DNA of 64,000 nt from a virus. Below, piece after piece: positions 44,443 to 63,231 of the stretch (within the stretch, counting starts at the first letter, position 1; the number at the start of each line of letters is the position of its first letter). The notes below the pieces were generated by a model. It was not told the origin of the DNA. It did not search any database and was given only the letters and a program-made list of their open reading frames with translations. Made by a program: the position numbers and the translations under genes. The DNA lies in IMG/VR virus record IMGVR_UViG_3300030117_005585, positions 13,754 to 77,753 of that record. One strand, given 5' to 3'.

Positions 44443-44514
44443 AGCGGAGGGTAGGAGTCGAACCTACATCTCTTCTTTGGAAAAGAAGTGTGTTTCCTAT
44501 AACACTTCCCCCGC
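44443..44514 (-). tRNA. tRNA-Gly(TCC)
   Basis: Acceptor stem GCGGGGG/CCTCCGC, U discriminator, anticodon arm CTTCT-TTTCCAA-AGAAG, T arm GTAGG-TTCGACT-CCTAC; CCA not encoded. Confidence 0.9.
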
Positions 44515-46559: not shown

Positions 46560-46576
46560 TTTTTTCCTAAAGGTTG

Positions 46577-46985
46577 TGGAGCTGAGGGGAGTCGAACCCC
46601 TGTCCAAGTAGTTTTCTTCAATAAGTCATTTACAGCTTAGCTGGTTTCCATCGGTAGAAACCAGCAAACAACCATGTGGATTCCTTTTACTCAGAACATA
46701 CCCTTTAACTGATATACTTTATACTCGCATATTAGAGTTGGTGTCTAACTCATTTTATGACCGAGTGTTAGACAACTCAGTAACTTATGCAGCGTATGCG
46801 TAAGTTGGTTGGTCTTGATTATAAGCAACCATAGGTGAGTAATCATACTCAGCTAAATGCCAATCAATTACCAACCCGTCTAGCGATTCATCGCCAATTA
46901 GGTTAGTTGAGTTTTATTTAAGAGTCTACTCAAACTCTGCTGCACTTAATTGTCAAATAACACCTGTCGAAACCATTACAGCCCC
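46577..46985 (-). ncRNA. ssrA: tmRNA (~409 nt)
   Basis: 5' GGGGCTGTAATGGTTTCGAC; 3' GGACAGGGGTTCGACTCCCCTCAGCTCCA (G3:U Ala acceptor); tag reading frame 46895-46785 ends YAYAA-stop. Confidence 0.96.
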
Positions 46986-57995: not shown

Positions 57996-60020
57996 TTATT
58001 TCTCCAAAAATCTTTTGTTCATTGTTTTAGCGATTGGAAGCACTGCGGTTACATCTATGAACTCAGCACTTGAACCATACATTTTTGTAAAGGTTGAACT
58101 AGCTCTATCCCTATCCCAACTATCTCCGATGAAATAACTGAGAACTTTGACACCACGACCTCTGATTGAATCAACCATTTTCTTAGTGTGATTGACTGCT
58201 GTGTCGTAATTGTAATCAATGTCTTCATTAGAAAACATTGGCATACCATCTGAAAAGTTTAAGAAGTAGGAATCTTTATCATTAGAACCAACTTCAATTT
58301 CTTTCATCACAGCCTCAAAACATAAACCCTCTGGCGTAGTGCCTGATGGACGAAGCAAATGAAACAGATTTCTCACTTTTGAAATCTTATCAACTCTTGA
58401 ATCGTAAGCAATTAACATCAATGGACTTGTCTTATGACTTCTTCTACTCATTTGAGTTGATTGTGTGCTTCTGTATGAAATAACCAAATCAACATTGTTA
58501 ATCATTGAACAGGCTTTAGCAATCGCTGTTACGGCAGTTTGTGTATTTCTCCACTTATCTCCACCCATTGAGCCACTAGCATCAACTGAGATATGTAAGA
58601 AAGCATCAGAGTAAGATTCAACAAAGGTGGTGTTGAATACTCTTTCATTACCAAACCCAAGCTCAGCAATTAATCTTTTATCGATTCTACCACTATCCAA
58701 TCTAGTCCACTTAGTCTCACGTGACTCCCCACGCACCTGAAGTTTCTTACCTAAGATAGTTCCCATAACTAAACCCTTTTGAATACATTCTTTGTACTCT
58801 TCTGAAGACCATTGGTATGATGGATTTGTAATCATAGAAATTGTATCAGATTCAGCTAGTGCCTTATCGAATTTTTTTACCATAAGAACTTTAGTAGGAC
58901 TCTTTTTACCTGTCCATCTATCAGTAGCACCAGCAACATCAACATAACTCATTCCGGCAGACTCTACGGCATCCATAGCAGCCTTATCAGATTTGGTAAG
59001 TTTCTTCTTAGTAATATCACCATCCATAAATTTCTTCTGTTTTGAAACTGCATTTTCGAGCTGTTTTTTTTGTCTATCACTAAGTTGTGGTTTATCACCA
59101 CTATCTGAATCAGAACTACTAACACTTTCACCATTATCGGAACTTTCACTACCTTCGACATTTTCATCACCATTACCCTCTTCAGGTTCTTCAGTGGGAT
59201 TTACTGTTTGAACATCTAAGTTGTCCAAAAGAATACTAAAGACTTTTAGTGTAATATCAAAGGCCTCTTCAGTAGAGTTCAAAGATTTAACATTACTAAA
59301 AATAAGATTTCTGATTTTTTTGAGACCAGGTAAGGAATCCAAATCTGAGTTTTTATTTGTGAGATTGATAATTCTGAAAATATATGAATCCCAATCCAAA
59401 GAAGTGTATTCATCAGATTGAAGTGCTTTATCAATAATTTTAGAATGAAAATACTTATCATACATTGAGTGGTAGTAACCTTTGTAGCCAGGTGAATTTG
59501 AAAACACAAAGTAATCAATTCGTCTATCTTCTACATAATTAAGTAAATCCTTCAATTTAATTTTGACATCATCTCTATCAAAACCAAAGACTTCTGCTCT
59601 GTTGAAATATTCCTGAGGAATCTCATTCTCAAGATTTCTAAGAAAATCAAAATTAGAGAGTTTGATATGAGAACCTTCATGCAACGCCAAACCAACAGTT
59701 GGGTCGAATGTTTTGTCATCTAATTTAGAAGATATTACAACAGCTTTACCATCTGTATAACTATCTCCACGCGAATTAAAAGTAACTTTGATATCAGACT
59801 CACCAGTAACAATTGATACGAAATTACTGATAGCCCTACGATAAGATGCCAGTGCAACTAAATCTACACCTTTCTTAGTTTCTTCCTCATCAAAAATTGA
59901 TGTCCTACTGATATCATTGTCTAACCAAAAAGACGAATAATTATTTGTACGATTCTTAGCAGAGTATTTTTCTCTAAGAGCCATTGGGTTGAAGTTTCTG
60001 AGTGTGTTTGAATCTTTCAT
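57996..60020 (-). CDS. vWA-domain protein with N-terminal HExxH domain (MoxR partner, CobT-like)
   Basis: LHEGSH, NYVEDRRI, acidic linker, MIDAS VDASGSM, GTTPE, FSDGMP. Confidence 0.88.
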   Translation of the reverse strand: MKDSNTLRNFNPMALREKYSAKNRTNNYSSFWLDNDISRTSIFDEEETKKGVDLVALASYRRAISNFVSIVTGESDIKVTFNSRGDSYTDGKAVVISSKLDDKTFDPTVGLALHEGSHIKLSNFDFLRNLENEIPQEYFNRAEVFGFDRDDVKIKLKDLLNYVEDRRIDYFVFSNSPGYKGYYHSMYDKYFHSKIIDKALQSDEYTSLDWDSYIFRIINLTNKNSDLDSLPGLKKIRNLIFSNVKSLNSTEEAFDITLKVFSILLDNLDVQTVNPTEEPEEGNGDENVEGSESSDNGESVSSSDSDSGDKPQLSDRQKKQLENAVSKQKKFMDGDITKKKLTKSDKAAMDAVESAGMSYVDVAGATDRWTGKKSPTKVLMVKKFDKALAESDTISMITNPSYQWSSEEYKECIQKGLVMGTILGKKLQVRGESRETKWTRLDSGRIDKRLIAELGFGNERVFNTTFVESYSDAFLHISVDASGSMGGDKWRNTQTAVTAIAKACSMINNVDLVISYRSTQSTQMSRRSHKTSPLMLIAYDSRVDKISKVRNLFHLLRPSGTTPEGLCFEAVMKEIEVGSNDKDSYFLNFSDGMPMFSNEDIDYNYDTAVNHTKKMVDSIRGRGVKVLSYFIGDSWDRDRASSTFTKMYGSSAEFIDVTAVLPIAKTMNKRFLEK

Positions 60021-60043
60021 ATATTTCCTTTATTATATAAACA

Positions 60044-60072
60044 AAGCTACGAAGAATTTTGCTAATATACAA
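60044..60072 (-). promoter_or_regulatory. Repeated early promoter, copy 5
   Basis: TTGTAT-17 nt-TAGCTT. Confidence 0.85.
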
Positions 60073-60129
60073 GCATTATTTCTTGTTTTCTGGATATTTT
60101 TTTTATTGGTTGTCATATACTATATATGG

Positions 60130-60146
60130 TACAAGAACTGTACCAA
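60130..60146 (-). promoter_or_regulatory. Sigma54-like -24/-12 element
   Basis: TTGGTAC-AGTTC-TTGTA, with TGACAAAATG repeats upstream. Confidence 0.5.
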
Positions 60147-60207
60147 ACTCAAAAGTCTGTCATTTTGTCACCACTATCACACTATCACACATTTTGTCAG
60201 AAGTAGA

Positions 60208-60267
60208 AACGGCTCCTAGCTTTTTTAAGTTTGGTAGATAGTGGAAACTAAAAATTTAGGAGCCGTT
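60208..60267. other. Long hairpin (11-bp perfect arms, extendable inward)
   Basis: AACGGCTCCTA ... TAGGAGCCGTT. Confidence 0.7.
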
Positions 60268-60272
60268 ATAAA

Positions 60273-60690
60273 AATTGAAAATCGGGGGATGTAGGGTTAA
60301 CGATTACCTACAACTTCTAGCTCAGATTTTTTTTACTTTGTACCTAATACCTAAAAGTTACTTTAGTTCTCTTCAAAGTGGTTAGCTTCATTAGAGTGAG
60401 TACAACCTCTGTATTATTGCCTTATCTCTCTGAGTTTAGATTAATTCAGCCACTAAGTGGGATTTGGTTTTATCCTACCCACAACAAAGTCAAAGAATCG
60501 TGTTCTTTAGTTATTCTAGAAGTACATTCCAAGTCGTATGTCTACGAATCGCTTCAACCTACGATATTTAGCAGGTGGATATAGTCACCACAACTTCTTG
60601 GTAGATTCCCTTATGAGCTTCTATGTTTACTCATTATTCAGGCAATCCCATAAAGAGTTAATTACTCTCTTTACTTTCTATTTTCAAATT
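60273..60690 (-). ncRNA. Candidate large structured ncRNA (~415 nt)
   Basis: No credible ORF; the ends pair (TTGAAAAT/ATTTTCAA); many internal and long-range helices; ATATTTATA motif just upstream. Confidence 0.65.
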
Positions 60691-60745
60691 GTCAAAAAAC
60701 TTATAAATATATATATATTCGAAAAATCCCAAACTGTCTTTTTTT

Positions 60746-61357
60746 TTAAACTTTTTTCAATTTAAGTTTTAACTGAGATATGTAACCATCTATTTTTTTA
60801 ATGTCTTTATGGTCGTCTGACATTTTTTCTCTTCTTAAAATTAATTTACCTAATGCTTTTTGTATGTCTAATTTTGCTAAACCTTTCATACTTTTTCTGT
60901 AATATAGATGTTCTAATGCTTCGTCTTCTGCTTCTGCTCCACGAACACCAGCAACAGCCGTTATGTATTCTGTTTCATAAACTTCAGCATCAGCTATACT
61001 TTCTATTTCATTCCAAACTGTATTTTCCCACATAGCATCTAAGTCTAAATCTTCAAGTGGTTCAGCTAATTCTTTTTCTTTAGCTAATCTTTCCTCTTCT
61101 TGTTTCTTTTTTCTCTTGATGGCGAATTCAGCATCATAGTATGTAGTTGATAAAGAATCACATTCACTTAACCATTTACCGTAATTCTTCCAATTAGGTC
61201 TACCATTAGAATTTCTATATTCGGTATCATCACATTCAGTTCCTCTAAATGTAGATGTTTTAAATTCTGATACACGAGTTACATCTTGACTATAGCTTAG
61301 TTGGATGTTCAGACAAATAAAAAGTATTAGGGTTGTATTCAAAATACCAAATTTCAT
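60746..61357 (-). CDS. Exported protein at the end of the pilin operon
   Basis: Signal-peptide-like N-terminus, Cys pair, AVAGVRGAEAE motif. Confidence 0.6.
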   Translation of the reverse strand: MKFGILNTTLILFICLNIQLSYSQDVTRVSEFKTSTFRGTECDDTEYRNSNGRPNWKNYGKWLSECDSLSTTYYDAEFAIKRKKKQEEERLAKEKELAEPLEDLDLDAMWENTVWNEIESIADAEVYETEYITAVAGVRGAEAEDEALEHLYYRKSMKGLAKLDIQKALGKLILRREKMSDDHKDIKKIDGYISQLKLKLKKV

Positions 61358-61685
61358 TATTCATTCTCCTATGATATAGTTTAGTTCCATCAAATTGCCA
61401 TTCATTATCTTCATCTGGTAATCCCAAATCAAAAGTAACAATGACACCTCTCGTACGACCTAATACTAAAAGTGGATGTTCAGGCCAACTTTCAATACCT
61501 GTTAATTCTTTTTGTTTCTCAGAGTATATTTCTAACTCTTCCCAAATTTTGTATGTAAAATCTTTTTCGAATTTAAGCTCTTCTAATTCAATTCTTTTTT
61601 CAAATCTTGGTATAGATACAACACTCAAAATTCCAATCAATAAAATCACTATAACTAATTCAATCATAGTGTAGCCTTTACTCAT
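61290..61685 (-). CDS. Type IV prepilin-like protein
   Basis: KG|YTMIELVIVILLIGILSVVSIPRF. Confidence 0.9.
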   Translation of the reverse strand: MSKGYTMIELVIVILLIGILSVVSIPRFEKRIELEELKFEKDFTYKIWEELEIYSEKQKELTGIESWPEHPLLVLGRTRGVIVTFDLGLPDEDNEWQFDGTKLYHRRMNNEIWYFEYNPNTFYLSEHPTKL

Positions 61686-62131
61686 TAGATTTCTCCGATT
61701 ACATATTCCTCATATGATGGACTATCTTCATCCACATCACTAATGATAAATAGTTTAGTTATATATCCTTGTGAAGAAGTATCAGATTTTATTTCATATT
61801 TAAATGGATTTCTGTTAGAGTTGAGCGGTAGATCTCCACTAAACAAATGATTAGGAGTTCTACCATCAGAGAGTATTAACTCAAAATAATCTTCATCTAA
61901 TAAATTGTTTTCTGGCTCAGTTGGAAGCTGTGGATTACCTTTCATATGAGTTTCTTGATAATATCTTAAAAATGAATCTTTTATGATTGACATATTAGCA
62001 AGGTTGATTTGCTTTTGGGTATCCATAGTTAAATTACTAAAAGTGGGAATAGCAAATGACATCACTACTCCCACCAAAGCAATACTAACTACTAACTCCG
62101 CCAATGTGAAACCAGCATTTGAGTTTCTCAT
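61685..62131 (-). CDS. Type IV prepilin-like protein
   Basis: AG|FTLAELVVSIALVGVVMSFAIPTF. Confidence 0.9.
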   Translation of the reverse strand: MRNSNAGFTLAELVVSIALVGVVMSFAIPTFSNLTMDTQKQINLANMSIIKDSFLRYYQETHMKGNPQLPTEPENNLLDEDYFELILSDGRTPNHLFSGDLPLNSNRNPFKYEIKSDTSSQGYITKLFIISDVDEDSPSYEEYVIGEI

Positions 62132-62142
62132 TGGTTTCTCCT

Positions 62143-62574
62143 TTAATCTACGATAGCTTCTCTAGCACCAATTGAACCAACACCAGCATTATCGCCTGAT
62201 TGAACTCCTTTGTCGTATGCCCAAGCATAACGAGAGTTATCTTTTCGTTGGTGTGTGATTTTGTTAGTTGTGGTATTGTATGTCCACTCACCATCGGTAT
62301 CAGCATTATCAACATCTGTTGAATCATATCCAACTGGCACCTGATCTAAAGCAGCAAAAGGATGGTCAGGCCAACTCTTTCTACCGTTATCAAGAAGTTG
62401 TTCAACAGCGTAATTTTCTAAACCAGCTTTCACAGAAGAAATTATTGCATTTTCAGCAGCTTCTTCAGCTTTGTCTACCACACCAACATATCTTGGTATG
62501 GCTACGGCTGCAAGAATTCCTAAAATGATAGTAACCATTATTAGTTCTATTAATGTGAATCCTTTGTTGTTCAT
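62143..62574 (-). CDS. Type IV prepilin (major-pilin-like)
   Basis: KG|FTLIELIMVTIILGILAAVAIPRY. Confidence 0.93.
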   Translation of the reverse strand: MNNKGFTLIELIMVTIILGILAAVAIPRYVGVVDKAEEAAENAIISSVKAGLENYAVEQLLDNGRKSWPDHPFAALDQVPVGYDSTDVDNADTDGEWTYNTTTNKITHQRKDNSRYAWAYDKGVQSGDNAGVGSIGAREAIVD

Positions 62575-62592
62575 TGTATTCTCCGTTAGATT

Positions 62593-63231
62593 CTAAGGTT
62601 GTAATTTCTTGTTAAAGTTCTTTGGACTTTCCAAATCTGCAATATAAAGAATTGGAGCATAGGATTGTTGTCCACTTCCACCACCAGCAATTACTGTGTA
62701 GATATAGTGACCGTCCTGAAAAGGTGATTTGATAGCATTACCACCAAACTCATTTAAGAACTCTTCAGCACCAGCTGAAACATCAAATGAACCATCACCA
62801 TTATCATCTTCTGATACATTCACAGAAGAACCTTGAGGTGCTGGTGACTCTAAATTGTCAGTTCCAAACACAGAAGCCCATTGTGATGCCTCTTCACTTT
62901 CATAAGTTTCGAATACATCGATACTTGAGAGAAGTAAATCTTCGTTAGCATATCCACCATTATCATCAGGCACACTTTCGTTATACTTTACCTGACCAGG
63001 AAATCTACCACGACCTTCTGATGTTACTTTAGCGTTATAAAAATTGTTAGCTGATTTCATTATCTTATCGATATCAGCTAATGTTTTTTTCTCCTTTGCA
63101 CCCTCTCCAACTCCTGAAAATTTAGGTGCGGCAGTTGTAGCAAGTGTAGCCATCATAGCAGTTGTTACTGCAAATTCGGCAAGTGACTGCCCACTTCTAC
63201 CCTTTAGATGTTTTTGTATTGTTTTGAACAT
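62593..63231 (-). CDS. Atypical prepilin-like protein
   Basis: Start corrected to ATG 63231 (AAGGAG RBS); SG|QSLAEFAVTTAMMATLATTAAPKF. Confidence 0.8.
   Translation of the reverse strand: MFKTIQKHLKGRSGQSLAEFAVTTAMMATLATTAAPKFSGVGEGAKEKKTLADIDKIMKSANNFYNAKVTSEGRGRFPGQVKYNESVPDDNGGYANEDLLLSSIDVFETYESEEASQWASVFGTDNLESPAPQGSSVNVSEDDNGDGSFDVSAGAEEFLNEFGGNAIKSPFQDGHYIYTVIAGGGSGQQSYAPILYIADLESPKNFNKKLQP

What the first reader, a model, noticed from the sequence alone, without database searches (positions are those of the whole stretch)
60273..60710. Candidate large ornate non-coding RNA with its own promoter
Seen on the minus strand. A closing helix TTGAAAAT/ATTTTCAA spans about 410 nt. Long-range pairs include GGGAT/ATCCC, TTGCCT/AGGCAA, GAAGT/ACTTC, CTCAGA/TCTGAG and TGTAC/GTACA. 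Local hairpins include TAAAGAG..CTCTTTA, ATGAG..CTCAT, GTGG..CCAC, AAAGAA-CACGA-TTCTTT, GTGGG..CCCAC and TGTAGG-TAATCGTTAAC-CCTACA. A pseudoknot or alternative pairing ACGATT/AATCGT is possible, and CTGAAT(A/T)A occurs twice. The ATATTTATA motif lies about 12 nt upstream and a strong hairpin lies downstream. About 0.7 kb without a credible gene is exceptional in this dense genome. Inference: a ROOL/GOLLD-style giant structured RNA, or a new class; I cannot assign the family by eye.
Basis: partly seen in the sequence, partly recalled or inferred. Interest (0 to 1): 0.82.

Follow-up and report, generated by a model that had tools for sequence, protein, structure and literature searches.

The report
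Two-core manA-type phage RNA gene
The flagged gene-free stretch of this uncultured marine phage is a real, about 415-base folded RNA found in ocean RNA libraries, but it is an enlarged relative of the known manA RNA (one manA-like core nested inside another), not a ROOL/GOLLD-type or wholly new RNA.

Summary
On the minus strand, 60275-60687 is a 413-nt structured RNA closed by TTGAAAAT/ATTTTCAA. Thirty-one distinct homologues from IMG/VR phage contigs support 123 pairs: 92.5% of cells are paired (34-44% in slid controls) and 87 pairs show compensatory changes.

It is not ROOL or GOLLD. Rfam manA (RF01745) hits 60286-60483 at 65.1 bits (cut-off 55.2) and weakly hits 60489-60673 (18.7 bits). Covariation shows the two halves are nested, not simply tandem. 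The manA helices P2 and P8 each have one strand in the upstream half and one in the downstream half, so a second manA-like core sits inside P8 of the first. A pseudoknot and an L8-L9 loop-loop pairing also covary.

Contigs from four ocean metatranscriptome studies cover only 60177-60670, not the flanking genes. Most relatives have a conserved 3' hairpin with a U-run, and the downstream gene varies (gp32-like ssb in 19 of 27 loci; CobT-like vWA here). This fits a free-standing RNA gene better than a riboswitch.

A 2026 preprint reports that manA RNAs form kissing-loop cages, so self-assembly is the likeliest mechanism, by inference only. This scan reached the same reading on other DNA (e1-5771618).

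The parts
60177..60700 (-). Approximate extent of the RNA: the structured unit plus the 3' hairpin. The transcribed part seen is 60177-60670.
   Evidence: RNA-library contigs of 4 studies lie only on 60177-60670. Adapter read-through occurs at 60662-60670 and at 60177. The structure extends to 60687.
60707..60733 (-). Conserved upstream block TTTGGGATTTTT..TATATATAT; candidate promoter, untested.
   Evidence: Conserved in most of the 31 homologues. It is the only match in the window, with 0 expected by chance. The scan finds no sigma-70 consensus here.
60680..60687 (-). Closing helix H0, 5' strand.
   Evidence: helix 1: 5 of 7 pairs with changes on both sides; a helix in every homologue.
60275..60282 (-). 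Closing helix H0, 3' strand.
60651..60673 (-). P1a hairpin (equivalent of manA P1).
   Evidence: 99% of cells paired; 6 of 7 pairs with compensatory changes (helix 3).
60645..60649 (-). P2 5' strand, GGGAU. It pairs with 60286-60290 across both cores.
   Evidence: Paired in 31 of 31 homologues. One compensatory change in L084 (GGGGU/ACCCC) (helix 4). Rfam aligns it to manA P2.
60286..60290 (-). P2 3' strand, AUCCC.
   Evidence: helix 4.
60608..60642 (-). P3 of the outer core, with the CUGAAUAA..UAAGG signature.
   Evidence: helices 5 and 6; closing pairs seen as AU, GC and CG.
60529..60601 (-). P4 multi-branch of the outer core: P5 (loop GUGGU), a variable P6, and P7 (loop GACA).
   Evidence: helices 7, 8 and 11: all P4 and P7 pairs covary. 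P6 is variable (helix 10: 57% paired in this register).
60516..60523 (-). P8 outer stem, 5' strand (in the upstream half).
   Evidence: Pairs 298-530 and 299-529 covary strongly (helix 12).
60313..60320 (-). P8 outer stem, 3' strand (in the downstream half, immediately before P9).
60492..60508 (-). P8 inner hairpin. Its loop L8 (ACGA, 60501-60498) pairs with L9.
   Evidence: helices 14 and 15; (pair 318-547 is among the top covariation scores).
60336..60489 (-). Inserted inner core. Helix X (60489-85 / 60340-36) encloses P1b (60482-60457), P3 (60450-60419) and the P4 multi-branch (60416-60345), which has loops GUUGUA, CUAACCA and UAAC.
   Evidence: helices 16-27: 95-100% paired, except the 2-pair inner P1b stem (11%) and the long CUAACCA hairpin (89.5%). 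Most pairs covary. This is the core of the Rfam manA hit 60286-60483.
60321..60326 (-). Pseudoknot strand UCUGAG, pairing with the P3 loop of the inner core (60429-60434).
   Evidence: helix 23 (pairs seen as CG/UA and AU/GC/UA).
60291..60311 (-). P9 hairpin. Its loop L9 (UCGU, 60303-60300) pairs with L8.
   Evidence: helices 28 and 15.
60208..60267 (-). Conserved 3' hairpin. The outer stem varies between homologues; the inner motif UUUUAGUUUCCAC..AACUUAAAA is invariant. A U-run follows in most relatives.
   Evidence: Per-sequence folds, alignment, and the motif being unique in the window. One RNA-library contig runs through it to 60177.

Best explanation
The region is a free-standing non-coding RNA gene of an uncultured marine phage whose relatives carry a T4 gp32-like gene. 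The product is an RNA of about 415 nt, about 490 nt or more with its 3' hairpin. It belongs to the manA lineage but has two cores.

**Shown**
- The outer manA-like fold consists of P1, P2, P3, a P4 junction with three hairpins, P8 and P9.
- A second manA-like core (helix X, P1b, P3, P4 junction) is inserted into the 3' side of the outer P8.
- The whole is clamped by an 8-bp end-to-end helix.
- A pseudoknot and an L8-L9 loop-loop pairing are kept by compensatory changes.
- RNA-library contigs of four studies lie on this stretch but not on the adjacent genes.

**Inferred**
- Canonical manA RNAs are reported (bioRxiv 10.64898/2026.07.01.735769) to assemble in vitro into pentamer-based decamers and 60-mer cages through intermolecular L5-L7' and L8-L9' kissing loops. 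This RNA probably also works as an RNA-only assembly unit and not as a ligand-sensing leader.
- Its two cores have swapped complementary loops. Outer L5 (UGGU) matches the inner ACCA loop. Inner L5 (UUGU) matches the outer GACA loop. The chain may therefore act as a covalent heterodimer of protomers that oligomerises further through L8-L9.
- What the assembly does for the phage is unknown.
For: - Rfam manA hits at 65.1 bits (above the 55.2 cut-off) and 18.7 bits.
- The whole unit, not only the Rfam half, is conserved upstream of the hit in related phage contigs.
- 31 distinct homologues were aligned. RNAalifold independently predicts 84 pairs, 59 with compensatory changes.
- The hand-built structure of 123 pairs has 92.5% of cells paired against 34-44% when slid. 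87 pairs have changes on both sides. The covariation score is 0.467 against 0.07-0.10 slid, and 0 of 500 shuffles reach it.
- The P8 strands (298-530, 299-529) and the P2 strands lie in different halves, which shows nesting.
- The L8-L9 pairs 318-547 and 319-546 covary.
- There is no conserved ORF and no 3-base periodicity of variation.
- RNA-library contigs of 4 studies cover only 60177-60670. Their word depths are about 4-510 (longest contigs 15-103), with nothing on the vWA gene or the 60746-61357 gene. The adapter orientation fits a minus-strand RNA.
- 19 of the 31 homologues keep the 3' hairpin with the conserved inner motif, nearly all of them followed by a U-run; several others have a different hairpin with a U-run.
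- The downstream gene differs between loci: gp32-like in 19 of 27, vWA in 3, others in the rest.
- The assembly behaviour of manA comes from the preprint.
- An earlier agent reached the same two-core reading on other DNA. That is not independent proof.
Against: - Oligomerisation of this RNA is untested. Covariation cannot tell a pairing within one chain from a pairing between chains.
- The reciprocal L5-L7 idea rests on invariant loops plus a single compensatory event, in L082.
- The RNA-library contigs are assemblies, so depth is not a quantitative ranking and the ends are only hints.
- Their 5' ends (60662-60670) fall inside P1a, 10-25 nt short of the closing helix. This is unexplained. Possible causes are loss of the 5' end in library preparation, or RNA processing.
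- No sigma-70 consensus promoter was found upstream. In the window the 3' hairpin lacks a clean U-run, and one contig reads through it.
- The downstream gene is on the same strand in nearly all loci, so some read-through control cannot be excluded.
Confidence: 0.7

Rival explanations
1. It is a cis-regulatory leader (riboswitch-type). The manA-like domains sense a metabolite or protein, and set termination at the 3' hairpin and so read-through into the downstream gene (the CobT-like vWA gene here, gp32-like ssb in most relatives).
For: Weinberg et al. 2010 classed manA as a probable cis-regulatory riboswitch candidate. The next gene is on the same strand, mostly 184-270 nt downstream, in nearly all loci. 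A hairpin with a U-run lies between the RNA and the gene. GGGAU has two mutually exclusive partners, local AAUCY (96% paired) and distal AUCCC (100% paired), which could be a switch.
Against: The downstream gene is not constant: ssb, vWA, a methyltransferase and unknown genes. In some relatives the RNA lies kilobases from the vWA gene. The terminator stem does not overlap any strand of the structured unit, so no mutually exclusive pairing is evident. RNA-library contigs lie on the RNA but not on the downstream gene. A first-stage note, unchecked, places a separate promoter cassette directly upstream of the vWA gene. No ligand is known for manA.
Confidence: 0.17
2. It is two independent manA RNAs in simple tandem. 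Each folds alone, as in tandem riboswitch aptamers or arrays of RNA genes.
For: Rfam reports two adjacent manA matches, 60489-60673 and 60286-60483. A relative also shows a weak hit followed by a stronger one. Both halves carry the CUGAAUAA..UAAGG signature.
Against: The upstream half has the 5' strands of P2 and P8 but no 3' partners. The downstream half has the 3' strands of P2 and P8 but no 5' partners. The cross-half pairs covary. Rfam's alignment deletes P2 in the downstream hit and fits P8 poorly. A single closing helix brackets both halves.
Confidence: 0.05
3. It is a ROOL/GOLLD-type giant RNA or an entirely new RNA class.
For: It is large (over 400 nt), has an ornate multi-helix fold with pseudoknots, lies in a phage, and has a stand-alone arrangement. 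manA, like ROOL and GOLLD, is now reported to form RNA-only multimers.
Against: No ROOL or GOLLD hit appears at any threshold tried. A manA hit above the curated cut-off explains half of the element, and the other half shares the same signature motifs and helices.
Confidence: 0.03

Closest known systems
manA RNA motif (Rfam RF01745; Weinberg et al. 2010, PMC2864571; assemblies in bioRxiv 10.64898/2026.07.01.735769)
   Same: The 3' half scores above the family cut-off. Shared features are the P3 signature CUGAAUAA..UAAGG, a P4 junction with three hairpins, an L5 loop GUGGU with an ACCA partner loop, P8/P9 with complementary L8 and L9 loops, P2 enclosing the core, a P1 hairpin in front, and occurrence in marine phages that carry T4-type genes.
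   Different: It is about 415 nt instead of about 190. A second core is inserted into P8, so P2 and P8 span both cores. There is an extra end-to-end closing helix, an extra helix X, and a pseudoknot between the inner P3 loop and the linker. The complementary L5 and L7-type loops are split between the two cores. There is a conserved 3' hairpin with an invariant loop motif. It is arranged as its own gene and is not evidently a 5' UTR.
Two-core manA-type RNA reported earlier in this scan on another genome (e1-5771618)
   Same: The same architecture as described there: about 410 nt, a second manA-like core inserted into the first, upstream of ssb, and read as a gene of its own. Most homologues found here also lie upstream of a gp32-like ssb gene.
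   Different: The two sequences share only 4 of 108 short words, so they are diverged. In this window the RNA lies upstream of a CobT-like vWA gene and downstream of a pilin-like gene cluster, not next to ssb.
ROOL and GOLLD large phage-associated RNAs
   Same: They are large structured RNAs in phage or prophage DNA, free-standing, and form RNA-only multimers.
   Different: There is no sequence or structure match in Rfam. This RNA is smaller and has a different core.

Membership tests
manA RNA (RF01745) | Covariance-model score at or above Rfam's gathering threshold (55.2 bits) | tested here: met
   60286-60483 (-) scores 65.1 bits, model positions 1-192. The upstream half alone scores 18.7 bits, below the threshold.
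manA RNA (RF01745) | P3 hairpin with the conserved CUGAAUAA ... UAAGG motif and covarying closing pairs | tested here: met
   Present twice (60642-60608 and 60450-60419). The closing pairs covary (helices 5, 6, 21, 22).
manA RNA (RF01745) | P2 helix enclosing P3-P9 of one core | tested here: not met
   GGGAU/AUCCC exists and is paired in 31 of 31 homologues, but it encloses both cores. Rfam's alignment of the downstream hit deletes P2.
manA RNA (RF01745) | P8 as a simple hairpin followed directly by P9 | tested here: not met
   The P8 outer stem is formed by 60523-16 and 60320-13. About 170 nt, including the whole inner core, lie between the P8 inner hairpin and the P8 3' strand. P9 does follow directly, as in manA.
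manA RNA (RF01745) | Complementary L8/L9 and L5/L7 loops (the kissing loops of the 2026 cryo-EM preprint) | tested here: met
   L8-L9: two of the four pairs covary and two do not vary (helix 15). L5 UGGU with the ACCA loop: 99% paired but nearly invariant (helix 9). My mapping of the loop numbers onto the preprint's is an inference from the Rfam consensus.
manA RNA (RF01745) | Location in the 5' UTR of a regulated gene | tested here: inconclusive
   A same-strand gene follows at about 184-490 nt, but it varies in identity and is separated by a hairpin with a U-run. RNA-library contigs do not continue into it.
manA RNA (RF01745) | Self-assembly into pentamer-based oligomers | not testable with these tools
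   Needs native gel, SEC or cryo-EM.
ROOL / GOLLD | Match to the Rfam covariance models | tested here: not met
   No hit at the gathering threshold on the window, nor at E<=10 on 59900-60900.

The most novel reading that the evidence does not exclude
The two-core RNA is a natural covalent heterodimer of cage-forming manA protomers. The cores recognise each other through swapped L5 and L7-type loops, and chains join through L8-L9. In infected cells this would build an RNA-only shell or ring of different geometry from canonical manA. The phage would express it at high level for a structural or sequestering role, and not for gene control.
Probability: 0.2. Interest if true: 0.85.

Novelty: new variant of a known kind. 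Interest (0 to 1): 0.55.

Why it matters
manA was an orphan riboswitch candidate for 15 years. A 2026 preprint now reports that it builds RNA-only cages in vitro. A naturally fused two-core version would be a ready-made test case for three questions:
- how RNA quaternary structure evolves, by duplication and fusion of protomers as in proteins;
- whether these assemblies exist in vivo;
- what they do for phages.

This version is conserved in dozens of marine phage contigs and was recovered from ocean metatranscriptomes while the adjacent genes were not.

It also shows that the current Rfam model annotates only half of such elements, so manA-derived RNAs are under-counted in phage genomes.

Tried and rejected
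- **ROOL, GOLLD, RNase P, group I intron:** no Rfam match.
- **Thermodynamic stability of the single sequence:** z = -1.07, not informative.
- **Sigma-70 promoter and intrinsic-terminator consensus scans:** no promoter-like site upstream of the RNA, and no terminator-like site anywhere in 59900-60900.
TTGCCT/AGGCAA and GTGG..CCAC are not conserved. TGTAC/GTACA does not covary and clashes with supported helices.
- **Coding reading:** rejected. There is no conserved open frame and no codon periodicity.
- **Cultured phage relatives:** the RNA has no DNA match among 50,697 phage records. The vWA protein has only two distant hits (33-38% identity), so no cultured relative was found.
- **Host via cellular genomes:** the 3' motif pattern has no match in genome contigs. 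The host stays unknown.
- **Second viral pattern scan** (ATGGGATTG..GTGGTG): too loose and mostly chance hits. True members were recovered from it with an nhmmer profile.
- **RNAalifold on the 3' hairpin alignment:** That hairpin rests on per-sequence folds.
It was redone with coordinates only.
- **Testing the outer core alone against the manA model** (inner core removed) could not be done. It needs a joined sequence that has no reference.
- **Parts of the laid stretch without RNA-library contigs** are not proof of silence. This is the tool's own caveat.

Full report
**What is there**

The window is part of an IMG/VR virus record of 77.7 kb, estimated 42% complete. Between the stop of a 203-aa gene (60746) and the start of a 674-aa CobT-like vWA gene (60020), 725 bases carry no credible gene. 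Both genes are on the minus strand.

A scan of the whole window against Rfam at curated thresholds gave three hits. They are a tmRNA, a tRNA, and manA RNA (RF01745) at 60286-60483 on the minus strand, at 65.1 bits against a cut-off of 55.2. A permissive scan of the region added a second, weak manA alignment directly upstream (60489-60673, 18.7 bits). It found nothing for ROOL, GOLLD, RNase P or introns.

**Homologues**

The vWA protein retrieved 72 related viral loci. manA was found in 13 of 49 of those records. BLAST showed that the upstream half is conserved as well, at 71-86% identity, directly in front of the Rfam hit. Two pattern scans of IMG/VR and an nhmmer profile gave 64 matches. These reduce to 31 distinct full-length units, 46-75% identical to the window. 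Unit length from closing helix to closing helix is 403-443 nt.

**Structure**

RNAalifold on the 31 sequences predicted 84 pairs, 59 with compensatory changes, including the end-to-end helix. A covariation scan over all column pairs (G-test with APC correction) put hairpin pairs at the top, together with several long-range pairs.

I then wrote a structure of 123 pairs by coordinates and counted it:
- 92.5% of cells are paired, against 34-44% when the partners are slid by 1-3 columns.
- 87 pairs have changes on both sides, against 31-45 when slid.
- The covariation score is 0.467, against 0.07-0.10 when slid.
- 0 of 500 shuffles reach the observed values.

The closing helix exists in every homologue, at 6-15 bp. 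There is no conserved open frame and no 3-base periodicity of variation. The folding energy of the single sequence is unremarkable (z = -1.07), so the case rests on covariation.

**Architecture**

The two halves are not two separate manA RNAs.
- The upstream half has P1 (60673-60651), the 5' strand of P2 (GGGAU), P3, a P4 junction, and the 5' strand of P8 (60523-16).
- The partners of P2 (AUCCC, 60290-86) and of P8 (60320-13) lie at the 3' end of the downstream half. There they are followed and preceded by P9 exactly as in the Rfam consensus.
- The P8 pairs 298-530 and 299-529 are among the best covarying pairs (CG, AU, UA, GC types).

Between the P8 strands lie three things:
- the P8 inner hairpin (60508-60492);
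- a new helix X (60489-85 / 60340-36) that encloses a P1-like hairpin, a second P3 and a second P4 junction;
- an A-rich linker whose UCUGAG pairs with the loop of the second P3, forming a pseudoknot of which 4 of 6 pairs show changes on both sides.

So a second manA-like core is inserted into P8 of the first. This explains why Rfam's alignment of the strong hit deletes P2 and fits P8 badly.

The loop of the P8 inner hairpin (ACGA) and the loop of P9 (UCGU) covary (AU 18, GC 10, UA 2, CG 1; and CG 25, UA 6). GGGAU also has a local alternative partner, AAUCY (96% paired). The most divergent homologue breaks the local pairing but keeps the distal one.

**Link to what is known**

Weinberg et al. 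2010 described manA as a probable cis-regulatory riboswitch candidate of marine metagenomes, T4-like cyanophages and two gamma-proteobacteria.

A bioRxiv preprint of July 2026 reports cryo-EM structures in which manA RNAs form pentamer-based decamers and a 60-subunit cage. The subunits are held by intermolecular kissing loops L5-L7' and L8-L9', or L3-L8'.

I read the Rfam consensus as follows: L5 GUGGUG with L7 uaACCA, and L8 UaCUguA with L9 UAuacAguAAU. The covarying loop pair found here is then the L8-L9 contact. The outer core's L5 (GUGGU) is complementary to the inner core's CUAACCA loop (99% paired, nearly invariant). The inner core's L5 (GUUGUA) may pair with the outer core's GACA loop, supported by one compensatory event in L082. 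This loop mapping and the heterodimer idea are inferences.

**Expression and gene context**

Six metatranscriptome runs hold 6-9% of the sampled words of a 4.6-kb stretch around the element. Four runs from four studies were laid on that stretch, with these results:
- Their contigs cover 60177-60670, at word depths of about 4-510 (longest contigs 15-103).
- Nothing lies on the vWA gene or on the 60746-61357 gene.
- There are only low-depth pieces on the pilin-like gene at 62007-62600.
- One contig spans 60177-60662 and carries Illumina adapter sequence at both ends.
- Adapter read-through also marks 60667 and 60669 in two other studies. Its orientation fits an RNA on the minus strand.

These are assemblies, so depth is not a ranking and the ends are hints. 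The 5' ends fall inside P1a, 10-25 nt short of the closing helix. I cannot explain this with certainty. The cause may be 5'-end loss in library construction, or RNA processing.

Downstream, 19 of the 31 homologues keep a hairpin with an invariant inner motif (UUUUAGUUUCCAC..AACUUAAAA), and nearly all of these have a U-run after it. The outer stem of the hairpin differs between homologues while staying complementary. The motif occurs only once in the window.

The next gene varies between loci:
- a gp32-like ssDNA-binding protein in 19 of 27 loci;
- the vWA gene in the window and two relatives;
- a methyltransferase or unknown genes elsewhere.

The window has no gp32 homologue.

This pattern fits a portable module of promoter, RNA and terminator better than a leader dedicated to one gene. 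The constant same-strand orientation leaves some room for read-through control.

**Verdict**

The family assignment (ROOL/GOLLD or a new class) is not supported. The element is a two-core, clamped variant of manA, apparently a gene of its own. Among the ten library papers that name manA, I read the four most relevant passages and found no description of a two-core form.

This scan had already reached the same reading on a diverged copy in another genome (e1-5771618). It has also noted several other enlarged manA-type phage RNAs. Those notes are leads, not independent proof. The structure, expression and context analyses above were done here.

No cultured relative and no host were found.

Noticed in passing
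window 60208-60267 (-): The hairpin after the RNA has an invariant inner sequence (UUUUAGUUUCCAC ... AACUUAAAA) in 19 homologues, while its outer stem differs between them but stays complementary. The motif occurs only once in the window. Its CCAC loop is complementary to the GUGG of the outer L5 loop, so it may be a further interaction module and not only a terminator.
   Followed up: partly
window 60662-60670 (-): RNA-library contigs of four studies end here, three of them with adapter read-through. This is inside the covarying P1a hairpin, 10-25 nt short of the closing helix. The cause could be a library artefact at the 5' end or processing of the RNA.
   Followed up: no
window 60603-60607, 60644-60649 and 60286-60290 (-): GGGAU(U) can pair either with a local AAUCY (96% of cells) or with the distal AUCCC (100%). 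The two pairings exclude each other. This could be a conformational switch, or a coincidence of similar sequences.
   Followed up: partly
window 62007-62600 (-): The first of three consecutive genes with a prepilin N-terminal methylation motif (61290-62574, PF07963) is also represented by low-depth contigs, 90-99% alike, in all four metatranscriptomes laid. Phage-encoded pilin-like genes seem to be expressed in the sea.
   Followed up: no
loci L074, L085, L096, L146 and others (downstream of the RNA): In 19 of 27 related contigs the RNA sits 184-260 nt upstream of a T4 gp32-like ssDNA-binding protein gene (PF08804). The window has no gp32 homologue, and the RNA has moved next to the vWA gene.
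   Followed up: partly
window 60120-60200 (-): Between the 3' hairpin and the vWA gene lie a direct repeat of GTGATAGT (60171-60190), an inverted repeat TGGTACA..TGTACCA (about 60126-60146), and a segment (about 60021-60105) that recurs upstream of other genes in relatives. A first-stage note calls that segment a promoter cassette.
   Followed up: no
window 46574-46985 and 44443-44514 (-): The phage carries a tmRNA (106 bits) and a tRNA (60.4 bits) by Rfam.
   Followed up: no
loci L083 and L086: Two related phage contigs carry a single-core manA (49.6 and 34.7 bits) and not the two-core form. Both forms therefore coexist in this phage group, which could help to date the insertion.
   Followed up: no
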